Of a stretch of 5,761 nt of DNA, positions 1,850 through 2,480 are shown piece after piece. A model generated the notes under the pieces. It did not search any database, was not told the origin of the DNA, and saw nothing but the letters and a program-made list of their open reading frames with translations. Both the position numbers and the translations under genes were made by a program. The DNA is taken from the IMG/VR virus record IMGVR_UViG_2675903559_000015; one strand, given 5' to 3'. Position 1 is the first letter of the stretch, and each line of letters begins with the position of its first letter. Source of the stretch: a virus. Taxonomy: Duplodnaviria; Heunggongvirae; Uroviricota; Caudoviricetes.

Positions 1850-1959
1850 TATTCATTCTTCCAGATTCCTTCCGGCAGAGCCTTATACTGAAATATACCT
1901 GGCTCAGGATATTGTTGAAAATATTTTATGTTTGTCAAAAATAAAAGTTCTGTTAAGTA

Positions 1960-2313
1960 TTGATTGAGTGTTTGTTATACGGTCTAATGGTTTTTTCAGC
2001 ATTAAATATTTATCATTCATATGGTGTGGGTAGAGTGAATATTGATGAGGCGTCGGGGTGTTTCATCCTTAGGCAGCGTATTGATATAGTCAATGCAGCA
2101 CGAGCAAAGGCCTTCAGCCGTTTGACAGTTTTGTTCTGTACTCCTGATCGTCTTTCGGGAAGAGACGTTATTATTCTGAATAGTGATGCTATACAGAGGG
2201 TTTGCGATGAGTTCATGGTTGCTAATTCAGAATTATTTGCTCTTGTTCAGGAGTACAACAGAATAGCCAGGACCTGTGGTATGGATGAACTTCGGATTAC
2301 TCATCTGGGGTAG
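1960..2313 (+). CDS. Hypothetical protein in AT-rich cargo island (117 codons from a TTG start; first in-frame ATG at 1987)
   Basis: ORF track only. No convincing Shine-Dalgarno at either start, no recognisable motif. AT-rich, atypical composition relative to flanking phage DNA. Confidence 0.3.
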   Translation: MIECLLYGLMVFSALNIYHSYGVGRVNIDEASGCFILRQRIDIVNAARAKAFSRLTVLFCTPDRLSGRDVIILNSDAIQRVCDEFMVANSELFALVQEYNRIARTCGMDELRITHLG

Positions 2314-2393
2314 ATACATATCTGGATTATCACCTGTTACGGTAAAAAGTGATTGCTTACTGTTTTTGTGAATGGCATTGCAGCAGCCGGATA

Positions 2394-2480
2394 ATGTCAG
2401 TGCTGGCTGACGGTGTGCTGGTGGCGGGTGTGGTGGTTGTTGCTTTCCCGTTGCTGAAAAAGAAAACGCCAGACTGTTAG
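2394..2480 (+). CDS. Candidate 28-aa hydrophobic mini-protein (MSVLADGVLVAGVVVVAFPLLKKKTPDC), single predicted transmembrane helix with basic tail
   Basis: Hand translation. Weak Shine-Dalgarno (gga) upstream. Could equally be a by-product of GTG-rich simple sequence. Last six codons lie inside repeat copy A. Confidence 0.2.
   Translation: MSVLADGVLVAGVVVVAFPLLKKKTPDC

What the first reader, a model, noticed from the sequence alone, without database searches (positions are those of the whole stretch)
1850..2462. AT-rich cargo island after tRNA copy 1 carrying a 117-codon ORF of unknown function
Base composition drops sharply right after the CCA end of argO, and the segment is unique to copy 1 (copy 2 has a terminator and the repeat here instead). 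This is the position where lambdoid phages carry morons, toxins or effectors. The ORF has no motif I can recognise and a weak start context, so it may be a novel accessory gene or a decayed remnant.
Basis: inference. Interest (0 to 1): 0.45.

Follow-up and report, generated by a model that had tools for sequence, protein, structure and literature searches.

The report
Small conserved prophage gene, function unknown
The AT-rich stretch after the first tRNA cluster does carry a real, selectively maintained gene, but it is 92 codons rather than 117, encodes a small two-helix protein that databases already list as "hypothetical", and is ordinary prophage cargo of unknown function.

Summary
GC falls from 0.56 in the tRNAs to 0.31-0.44 after argO copy 1. 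The segment occurs once in the window, and a 117-codon ORF (1960-2313) is there. ORF length alone is weak evidence: 65 of 2000 shuffles do as well. Comparison with relatives shows a real gene, but a shorter one, GTG 2035 to TAG 2313 (92 aa). Relatives of 91-99 aa in E. coli, Citrobacter, Salmonella, Serratia and Morganella align from that GTG. Of the two nearest divergent lineages, one has an in-frame stop plus an AGGAG ribosome-binding site just upstream, and the other has a 4-nt deletion that frameshifts the "extension" in 9 of 11 loci. Core dN/dS is 0.26, with no indels at 67-72% nucleotide identity. The protein matches PHROG 2873 and 4827 (unknown function) and has no Pfam, NCBIfam or PDB relative. 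AlphaFold2 predicts a helical hairpin (pLDDT 88.6). In prophages the family usually sits between the Q antiterminator/tRNAs and the lysis genes, often between terminators with no evident promoter, so I infer Q-dependent late expression. About 1,180 complete E. coli genomes carry the segment; every RefSeq record inspected leaves the gene unannotated. Already catalogued; low interest.

The parts
1773..1849 (+). tRNA-Arg(UCU), argO-like, copy 1. It forms the left border of the cargo. The tRNA repeat shared with copy 2 runs on to 1862.
   Evidence: ARAGORN, Rfam tRNA match, self-BLAST 1649-1862 = 2753-2965.
1850..2034 (+). AT-rich non-coding leader (GC 0.31). It includes the spurious 5' extension (1960-2034) of the 117-codon ORF. 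About 77 nt upstream of the start are conserved at DNA level with one sister lineage, but with indels. No convincing conserved sigma-70 promoter.
   Evidence: Composition. Upstream alignment with 1-, 2- and 4-nt indels. Frameshift or stop in sister lineages. Promoter scan.
2021..2038 (+). Five-codon mini-ORF (ATG GTG TGG GTA GAG TGA). Its stop overlaps the GTG start as GTGA. The same arrangement is present in the H61-type relative. Significance unknown.
   Evidence: Read directly from the sequences shown.
2035..2313 (+). The real gene: 92 codons, GTG start and TAG stop. It encodes a 10.4-kDa soluble protein (pI 5.7) predicted to form a two-helix hairpin. It belongs to PHROG 2873/4827, function unknown.
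   Evidence: Family alignment. PHROG hits. dN/dS 0.26-0.27 with no indels. 80 close loci with 5 nonsynonymous and 4 synonymous SNPs and no stop or indel. AlphaFold2 pLDDT 88.6. Protein properties.
2349..2480 (+). DUF3927 / TciB-like small membrane protein gene (43 aa), 35 nt downstream of the 92-codon gene with no terminator between them, so probably co-transcribed. Homology with tciB genes of other phages starts at 2381.
   Evidence: Pfam PF13064 E = 1.7e-27 and phrog_1470. PGAP annotation in relatives. Partial matches over query 532-613. No terminator found between the genes.
2463..2751 (+). Right border: a 289-bp repeat, identical at 4710-4998, that carries the sRNA gene STnc100 (2546-2735) with its terminator at 2705-2726.
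   Evidence: Self-BLAST. Rfam RF02076, 132 bits. Terminator scan.

Best explanation
Shown:
- Window 2035-2313 (+) is a functional 92-codon gene for a small soluble protein predicted to form an alpha-helical hairpin.
- The protein belongs to an uncharacterised family (PHROG 2873/4827).
- The family is cargo in lambdoid prophages of Enterobacterales. It usually sits between the Q antiterminator (often with a DNA methylase and tRNA genes) and the holin/lysis cassette.
- The 117- and 108-codon models over-extend the gene at the 5' end.
- Here the gene forms a roughly 640-bp AT-rich cargo block together with a DUF3927/TciB-like membrane-peptide gene. The block fills a slot that the duplicated tRNA copy 2 shows empty (tRNA, then terminator, then STnc100).

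Inferred:
- The gene has no convincing promoter of its own.
- It is transcribed as part of the Q-antiterminated late transcript that reads through the upstream terminators and tRNAs. It would then be made late in lytic growth rather than in the quiescent lysogen.

Inferred, low confidence (about 0.3):
- The hairpin pairs with a second copy into a four-helix bundle and acts by binding another protein, as a small adaptor or regulator. It is not an enzyme, toxin or membrane protein.
For: A real gene with its start at GTG 2035:
- HMMER against 1.84 billion representatives found 21 relatives. The full-length ones are 91-95 aa (one of 106 aa) and match query positions 26-117 or start slightly later.
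- A profile search added Citrobacter, Salmonella, Serratia, Morganella and Xenorhabdus members of 95-110 aa.
- The H61-type relative (63% aa identity) has an in-frame TGA ten codons upstream of the GTG, with no start codon between them, and AGGAG 4 nt before it. PGAP calls it as 92 aa, WP_001017777.1.
- In the AraC-linked lineage, 9 of 11 loci carry a 4-nt deletion that leaves only 5 open codons upstream.
- Nei-Gojobori dN/dS is 0.26-0.27 for all three lineage pairs. Third-position differences are about twice those at first or second positions. There are no indels in 276 nt at 67-72% nucleotide identity.
- 80 close loci (28 haplotypes) show no stop or indel in the core.

Fold:
- AlphaFold2 on 21 sequences gives pLDDT 88.6 and pTM 0.75, with helices at residues 3-34 and 50-81.

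Context:
- Q and/or methylase and tRNAs, then the gene, then the holin/lysis genes, in the E. coli, Citrobacter, Serratia, Morganella and Salmonella relatives inspected.

Late, Q-dependent expression:
- Intrinsic terminators were found both upstream and downstream of the gene in the Morganella, Serratia and Citrobacter loci, and downstream in the H61-type locus. No promoter-like site lies between the upstream terminator and the start.
- No conserved sigma-70 promoter lies upstream in the window.
- In the O104:H4 relative, Q lies about 230 nt upstream of the point where the window begins.

Empty versus filled slot:
- Self-BLAST and terminator scan.
Against: - The ribosome-binding context of GTG 2035 in this lineage is weak (GGGTAGA before a GTG start). 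Initiation at ATG 1987, the 108-aa model used in many GenBank records, cannot be excluded without ribosome profiling.
- Within the window's own lineage, polymorphism is too sparse (5 nonsynonymous, 4 synonymous) to show ongoing selection.
- One lineage (P0035) sits on Rep3 plasmids next to a K88-like fimbrial operon, and a Xenorhabdus member lies beside Mu-like baseplate genes. The protein therefore does not strictly need the Q-to-lysis context.
- No expression data were found.
- The promoter scan is a simple sigma-70 consensus search and would miss activator-dependent or alternative-sigma promoters.
Confidence: 0.75

Rival explanations
1. The ORF is a chance open frame or a decayed remnant in AT-rich non-coding cargo, and no protein is made.
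For: - ORF length alone is not compelling: 65 of 2000 shuffles reach 118 open codons.
- PGAP does not annotate it in any of the RefSeq E. coli records inspected for this lineage.
- All candidate start codons have weak contexts.
- Rare database variants carry frameshifts or truncations, e.g. P0008-P0010 and P0013.
Against: - The frame is conserved across homologues from about 63% down to about 20% identity in at least six genera.
- dN/dS is 0.26, with an excess of third-position changes and no indels.
- 80 of 80 close loci are intact.
- The structure prediction from the family alignment is confident.
- Relatives have strong ribosome-binding sites at the aligned start.
Confidence: 0.05
2. One reading: the protein is 117 aa (TTG 1960) or 108 aa (ATG 1987), with a hydrophobic N-terminal extension that is specific to this lineage.
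For: - The frame is open from 1960.
- The phrog_2873 profile is 108 positions long and matches residues 10-117.
- Many GenBank records annotate the 108-aa form.
- The Serratia/Morganella/Xenorhabdus branch has a conserved in-frame 11-codon N-terminal extension with its own ribosome-binding site, so family members can carry extensions.
- The extension shows little polymorphism, 2 SNPs in 75 nt.
Against: - Both nearest divergent lineages lack the extension. One has an in-frame stop, and the other has a 4-nt frameshift in 9 of 11 loci.
- The upstream DNA alignment needs 1-, 2- and 4-nt indels.
- Neither TTG 1960 nor ATG 1987 has a Shine-Dalgarno sequence.
- Both SNPs in the extension would be nonsynonymous.
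- The Citrobacter and plasmid members have only 3 and 1 open codons upstream of the aligned start.
Confidence: 0.15
3. It is a classical moron or lysogenic-conversion gene. It would be expressed from its own promoter in the lysogen and change host physiology or virulence, as stx, bor or the neighbouring iraM do, rather than serving a late lytic function.
For: - The composition is atypical: GC 0.41 against 0.53-0.56 in the flanks.
- Presence or absence varies at one slot between related prophages, and other lineages carry an AraC-like regulator or a TolA-like gene there.
- Relatives have a terminator right after the gene.
- A plasmid-borne lineage lies next to a fimbrial operon, which suggests a role for the host.
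- A TTATCAT/TTATAAT motif about 20 nt upstream of the start is conserved in three lineages and could be a -10 element.
Against: - No -35 element accompanies the conserved -10-like motif.
- The consensus scans found no promoter-like site between the upstream terminator and the start in four relatives.
- In the window no terminator follows the gene.
- No signal peptide, membrane segment or known virulence domain is present.
Confidence: 0.25

Closest known systems
PHROG 2873 (and the related PHROG 4827), phage orthologous groups of unknown function
   Same: - The 117-aa ORF matches phrog_2873 at E = 3.8e-70, and the 92-aa core matches at 5.6e-58.
- All 21 family members tested match phrog_2873, and 18 match phrog_4827.
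   Different: - The phrog_2873 profile includes 16 N-terminal positions (the ATG 1987 model) that comparative evidence here says are not part of the conserved protein.
- No function is attached to either group.
WP_001017777.1, a 92-aa hypothetical protein of E. coli prophages (H61-type lineage, P0019 cluster)
   Same: - 63% amino-acid identity over all 92 residues.
- Same GTG start position and same stop position.
- Same place downstream of the prophage N6/N4 DNA methylase and upstream of the holin.
   Different: - It has a strong AGGAG ribosome-binding site and its own terminator, and PGAP annotates it.
- The window's version has a weak ribosome-binding site, is followed by a DUF3927 gene instead of a terminator, follows tRNA genes, and is unannotated in the RefSeq records inspected.
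Lambdoid-phage morons in the Q-to-lysis slot (stxAB of Stx phages; from general knowledge of Stx phage maps)
   Same: - The gene sits immediately downstream of the methylase and the ileZ-argN-argO-like tRNA cluster and upstream of the NanS-p/holin genes.
- It has atypical base composition.
- Its presence varies between related prophages.
   Different: - There is no sequence or structural relation to Shiga toxin subunits.
- There is no signal peptide.
- No own promoter was detected.
Small helical-hairpin proteins such as Rop, the CHMP4B hairpin and designed helical bundles (structural resemblance only)
   Different: - The Rop hit by sequence profile has E = 0.75.

Membership tests
PHROG 2873/4827 (uncharacterised phage protein family) | Significant full-length match to the family HMM | tested here: met
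   phrog_2873 E = 3.8e-70 for the 117-aa ORF and 5.6e-58 for the 92-aa core. phrog_4827 E = 2.2e-05. 21 of 21 and 18 of 21 family members match.
PHROG 2873/4827 (uncharacterised phage protein family) | Reading frame kept under purifying selection among members | tested here: met
   dN/dS is 0.26-0.27 with no indels across three lineages. Invariant R23, N64 and N75 across 21 members.
Moron (autonomous accessory cassette of lambdoid phages) | Base composition unlike the flanking phage genes | tested here: met
   GC is 0.409 over 1850-2462, against 0.532 for the methylase and 0.564 for the tRNAs.
Moron (autonomous accessory cassette of lambdoid phages) | Present in some and absent from other related phages at the same site | tested here: met
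   tRNA copy 2 in the window has only a terminator at this site. 1183 of 5426 complete E. coli genomes carry the full segment. Other lineages hold different cargo in the slot.
Moron (autonomous accessory cassette of lambdoid phages) | Own promoter | tested here: inconclusive
   No conserved sigma-70 consensus upstream in the window. No promoter-like site between the upstream terminator and the start in four relatives. Only a simple consensus scan was possible.
Moron (autonomous accessory cassette of lambdoid phages) | Own terminator directly after the gene | tested here: not met
   No terminator lies between 2313 and 2349 in the window; the next one is at 2705-2726, after STnc100. The feature is met in the Citrobacter, Salmonella, Morganella, Serratia and H61-type relatives.
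   No Pfam or NCBIfam hit, and no PDB hit by sequence profile below E = 0.1. PADLOC gave only weak hits (best E = 8e-4, in 4 of 21 members) that do not cover the window protein. The predicted fold is a soluble helical hairpin.
   No dedicated signal-peptide predictor was run.
DUF3927 / TciB-like (the neighbouring gene 2349-2480, not the ORF) | Match to PF13064 above its gathering score | tested here: met
   95.6 bits against a cut-off of 25, E = 1.7e-27. Also phrog_1470, E = 7.8e-13.

The most novel reading that the evidence does not exclude
The 92-aa hairpin protein family is a dedicated late-operon factor of lambdoid phages across Enterobacterales. Intrinsic terminators would keep it silent, and it would be made only when Q-modified RNA polymerase reads through. 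It would have a specific role in lytic development, for example tuning lysis timing or neutralising a host factor just before lysis. On this reading a common phage function is unannotated in the RefSeq records inspected, from a lineage carried by about 1,180 complete E. coli genomes.
Probability: 0.2. Interest if true: 0.45.

Novelty: already known. Interest (0 to 1): 0.2.

Why it matters
The main result is a gene-model correction. A conserved 92-codon prophage gene is carried by about 22% of complete E. coli genomes (1183 of 5426). In the records inspected it is either unannotated (RefSeq/PGAP) or annotated 16 codons too long (many GenBank records, PHROG 2873). It occupies the slot that holds Shiga toxin genes in Stx phages, so knowing that this cargo is a small helical protein of unknown function, not a toxin-like product, helps when reading prophage maps of pathogenic E. 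coli and Shigella. The terminator-bracketed, promoter-less layout in relatives gives a simple testable prediction: expression that depends on Q. None of this is surprising to a phage specialist.

Tried and rejected
- Pfam, NCBIfam and PADLOC scans of the ORF and of 21 family members gave nothing significant. RHIM scored E = 0.09, and the HEC-06/07 and Csm2 hits are weak and inconsistent.
- A PDB sequence-profile search gave a best E of 0.11 (UPF0335/GapR, helix 1 only). I treated it as coiled-coil noise.
- A genome-contig scan returned one E. coli locus only.
- A literature search for the accessions, the PHROG ids and DUF3927 found nothing on this protein.
- I searched for papers on the prophage AraC-like regulators PatE and PsrB, to see whether the gene next to the AraC-like neighbour had been studied. 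I did not pursue it, because I could not verify that the neighbour is one of them.
- I rejected the minus-strand ORFs (2013-2216, 67 aa; 1738-1938, 66 aa). They have no family hits, and the excess of third-position changes fits the + frame.
- I rejected the terminator-like hairpin inside the gene (2149-2167) as chance. The equivalent sequence in the AraC-type relative does not form it.
- I rejected an obligate two-gene module with DUF3927. DUF3927 occurs without the gene in hundreds of genomes, and the gene occurs without DUF3927 in the H61-type, Serratia, Morganella and plasmid lineages.

Full report
**What the window is.** It is the late-regulatory region of a lambdoid prophage of E. coli or Shigella. 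Its features, in order:
- a 65-aa winged-helix-like ORF (153-350)
- an N6/N4 DNA methylase (501-1559)
- tRNA-Ile2-like (CAU), tRNA-Arg (UCG) and tRNA-Arg (UCU) at 1600-1849
- the segment in question
- a 289-bp repeat carrying the sRNA gene STnc100
- a partial second copy of the tRNA cluster (2753-2965), followed by a terminator and a second STnc100
- an IS3-family element on the minus strand
- a third STnc100, then iraM (minus strand), then the start of a DUF1737-type gene

In E. coli O104:H4 2011C-3493 the simpler version of the same region reads: Q antiterminator, the 65-aa gene, methylase, three tRNAs, the segment, a DUF3927 gene, STnc100, iraM, a NanS-p-type esterase, holin. No complete E. 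coli genome has the window's duplicated, IS-interrupted arrangement.

**Checking the observation.**
- The drop in GC is real: 0.564 in the tRNAs, 0.314 in 1850-2034, 0.441 in 2035-2313.
- The segment has no second copy in the window.
- tRNA copy 2 is followed directly by a terminator (2968-2985) and STnc100. Copy 2 therefore shows the same slot empty, and the cargo in copy 1 is about 1863-2504.
- The 117-codon ORF (TTG 1960 to TAG 2313) and its 108-codon ATG 1987 version exist.
- Length alone is weak evidence. 65 of 2000 dinucleotide-preserving shuffles of the segment give an open run at least as long.

**Is the ORF a gene?** Yes.
- It matches PHROG 2873 at E = 3.8e-70 and PHROG 4827 weakly.
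- Protein searches found near-identical proteins, two E. coli lineages at about 57-63% identity, and more distant members in Citrobacter, Salmonella, Serratia, Morganella and Xenorhabdus at 20-43% identity.
- For the 92-codon core, Nei-Gojobori dN/dS is 0.26-0.27 for each pair of the three E. coli lineages. Third-position differences are about twice those at first or second positions. There is not one indel in 276 nt at 67-72% nucleotide identity.
- In 80 close viral-contig loci (28 haplotypes) the core has nine SNPs (five nonsynonymous, four synonymous) and no stop or indel.
- The 'decayed remnant' option is therefore rejected.

**Where does the gene start?** Not at 1960 or 1987, on the comparative evidence.
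- Full-length relatives are 91-99 aa and align from residue V26 of the 117-aa ORF, which is GTG 2035.
- In the H61-type lineage (L095) an in-frame TGA lies ten codons upstream of the homologous GTG, with no start codon between them. An AGGAG lies 4 nt before the GTG, and PGAP annotates a 92-aa protein, WP_001017777.1.
- In the AraC-linked lineage, 9 of 11 loci carry a 4-nt deletion that leaves five open codons, none of them a start codon, upstream of the GTG.
- The upstream DNA alignment needs 1-, 2- and 4-nt gaps.
- The Citrobacter and plasmid members have only 3 and 1 open codons upstream.
- In the window's own lineage the GTG has a weak ribosome-binding context (GGGTAGA), and the upstream frame is open. 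Use of ATG 1987 cannot be excluded without start-site mapping, and I give that rival 0.15.

**What the protein looks like.**
- It has 92 residues, a mass of 10.4 kDa and pI 5.7. The model shows no membrane segment.
- AlphaFold2 on a 21-sequence alignment gives pLDDT 88.6 and pTM 0.75. It predicts two long helices (residues 3-34 and 50-81) joined by the conserved TPDR-containing loop.
- R23, N64 and N75 are invariant across the family. C9, L12, E66, V71 and A78 are nearly so.
- Pfam, NCBIfam, PADLOC and PDB sequence profiles give nothing significant.
- The fold therefore says 'small helical protein, probably oligomeric' and nothing more. The four-helix-bundle adaptor idea is inference, at about 0.3.

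**Context and likely expression.**
- In E. coli, Citrobacter, Salmonella, Serratia and Morganella the gene lies downstream of Q, often after the same methylase and/or tRNAs, and just upstream of the holin/endolysin genes.
- Intrinsic terminators lie both upstream and downstream of it in the Morganella, Serratia and Citrobacter loci, and downstream in the H61-type locus. No sigma-70-like site was found between the upstream terminator and the start.
- In the window no conserved promoter is evident. No terminator separates the gene from DUF3927.
- My best reading is that the Q-antiterminated late transcript carries the gene, so it is expressed on induction. This is inferred, not shown.
- There are exceptions: a lineage on Rep3 plasmids beside a K88-like fimbrial operon, and a Xenorhabdus copy beside Mu-like baseplate genes. 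These keep the lysogenic-conversion (moron) rival alive at about 0.25.

**Comparison with what is known.**
- The protein is a member of PHROG 2873/4827, and public records already list it as a 'hypothetical protein' on more than 1000 contigs.
- It meets two moron criteria (composition, presence/absence). It fails the own-terminator criterion in this window, and its promoter status is unresolved.
- It has no relation to toxins or effectors.
- The segment is in 1183 of 5426 complete E. coli genomes at 98.5% identity or more. Every RefSeq record inspected annotates only the DUF3927 gene there.

**Verdict.** This is a real but ordinary, already catalogued small prophage gene whose published and first-reader gene models are too long. 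Its function is unknown and interest is low (0.2). The most novel reading still open is a dedicated Q-dependent late function shared across Enterobacterales prophages (probability about 0.2).

Noticed in passing
window 2349-2480 (+): A DUF3927/TciB-like 43-aa membrane-peptide gene lies inside the finding's range. Other phages share only its 3' part, from 2381 onward, so a recombination junction lies within the gene. Its last six codons recur at 4710-4727 as part of the repeat.
   Followed up: partly
window 2546-2735, 3030-3219, 4793-4982 (+); L094 2167-2379 and 4139-5118: The window has three copies of the prophage sRNA gene STnc100 (RF02076, 124-132 bits). Two of them lie within an exact 289-bp repeat (2463-2751 = 4710-4998). 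An E. coli O178:H19 relative has five copies, four of them in tandem. A 2026 preprint (10.64898/2026.05.13.724894) relates STnc100 to the PasD sRNAs.
   Followed up: partly
window ~3393-4656 (-) and 5726-5761: An IS3-family insertion sequence (orfA 4295-4597, orfB 3441-4259) sits between STnc100 copies 2 and 3. A 36-nt match to one of its ends (3393-3428) recurs at the window's last bases, so a second copy apparently cuts the DUF1737-type gene. From memory it resembles IS600, which would point to a Shigella-like host. Not verified.
   Followed up: no
window 2753-2985 versus 1649-1862; L096 5328-5347, L106 4306-4323: The second tRNA cluster lacks the first 49 nt of the tRNA-Ile2-like gene and is followed by the terminator GGCTCGCTTTTGCGGGCC-T8. 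That terminator resembles the one found directly after the 92-aa gene in the Citrobacter, Salmonella and Morganella relatives.
   Followed up: partly
window 2021-2038 (+); L095 ~3518-3535: A five-codon mini-ORF (M-V-W-V-E in the window, M-A-G-V-E in L095) ends in a TGA that overlaps the GTG start as GTGA in both lineages. It might couple translation, or it might be coincidence.
   Followed up: no
L102 ~4968-5000, L106 ~3968-4000, L108 4001-4033: In the Serratia/Morganella/Xenorhabdus branch an in-frame 11-codon N-terminal extension (MSVQYVLKGYS-like) is conserved, with conservative substitutions and its own purine-rich ribosome-binding motif. The 96-99-aa annotations there may be too short.
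   Followed up: partly
L003 164-889, L094 2756-3481: In one E. coli lineage a 241-aa AraC-family (HTH_18) regulator gene sits directly upstream of the 92-aa gene, in place of the tRNAs. It may correspond to the prophage AraC-like regulators described in EHEC. Identity not checked.
   Followed up: no
L099-L101 5001-5276: A 91-aa family member (P0035, 34% identity) is carried on Rep3-type plasmids of E. coli, about 1.2 kb from a PapB-type regulator and a K88-like chaperone-usher fimbrial operon. It lies outside any phage context.
   Followed up: partly
window 1960-2313; RefSeq E. coli records: PGAP/RefSeq leaves this gene unannotated in every record inspected for the window's lineage, yet annotates the 63%-identical H61-type paralogue. 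GenBank submissions mostly carry the 108-aa model.
   Followed up: yes
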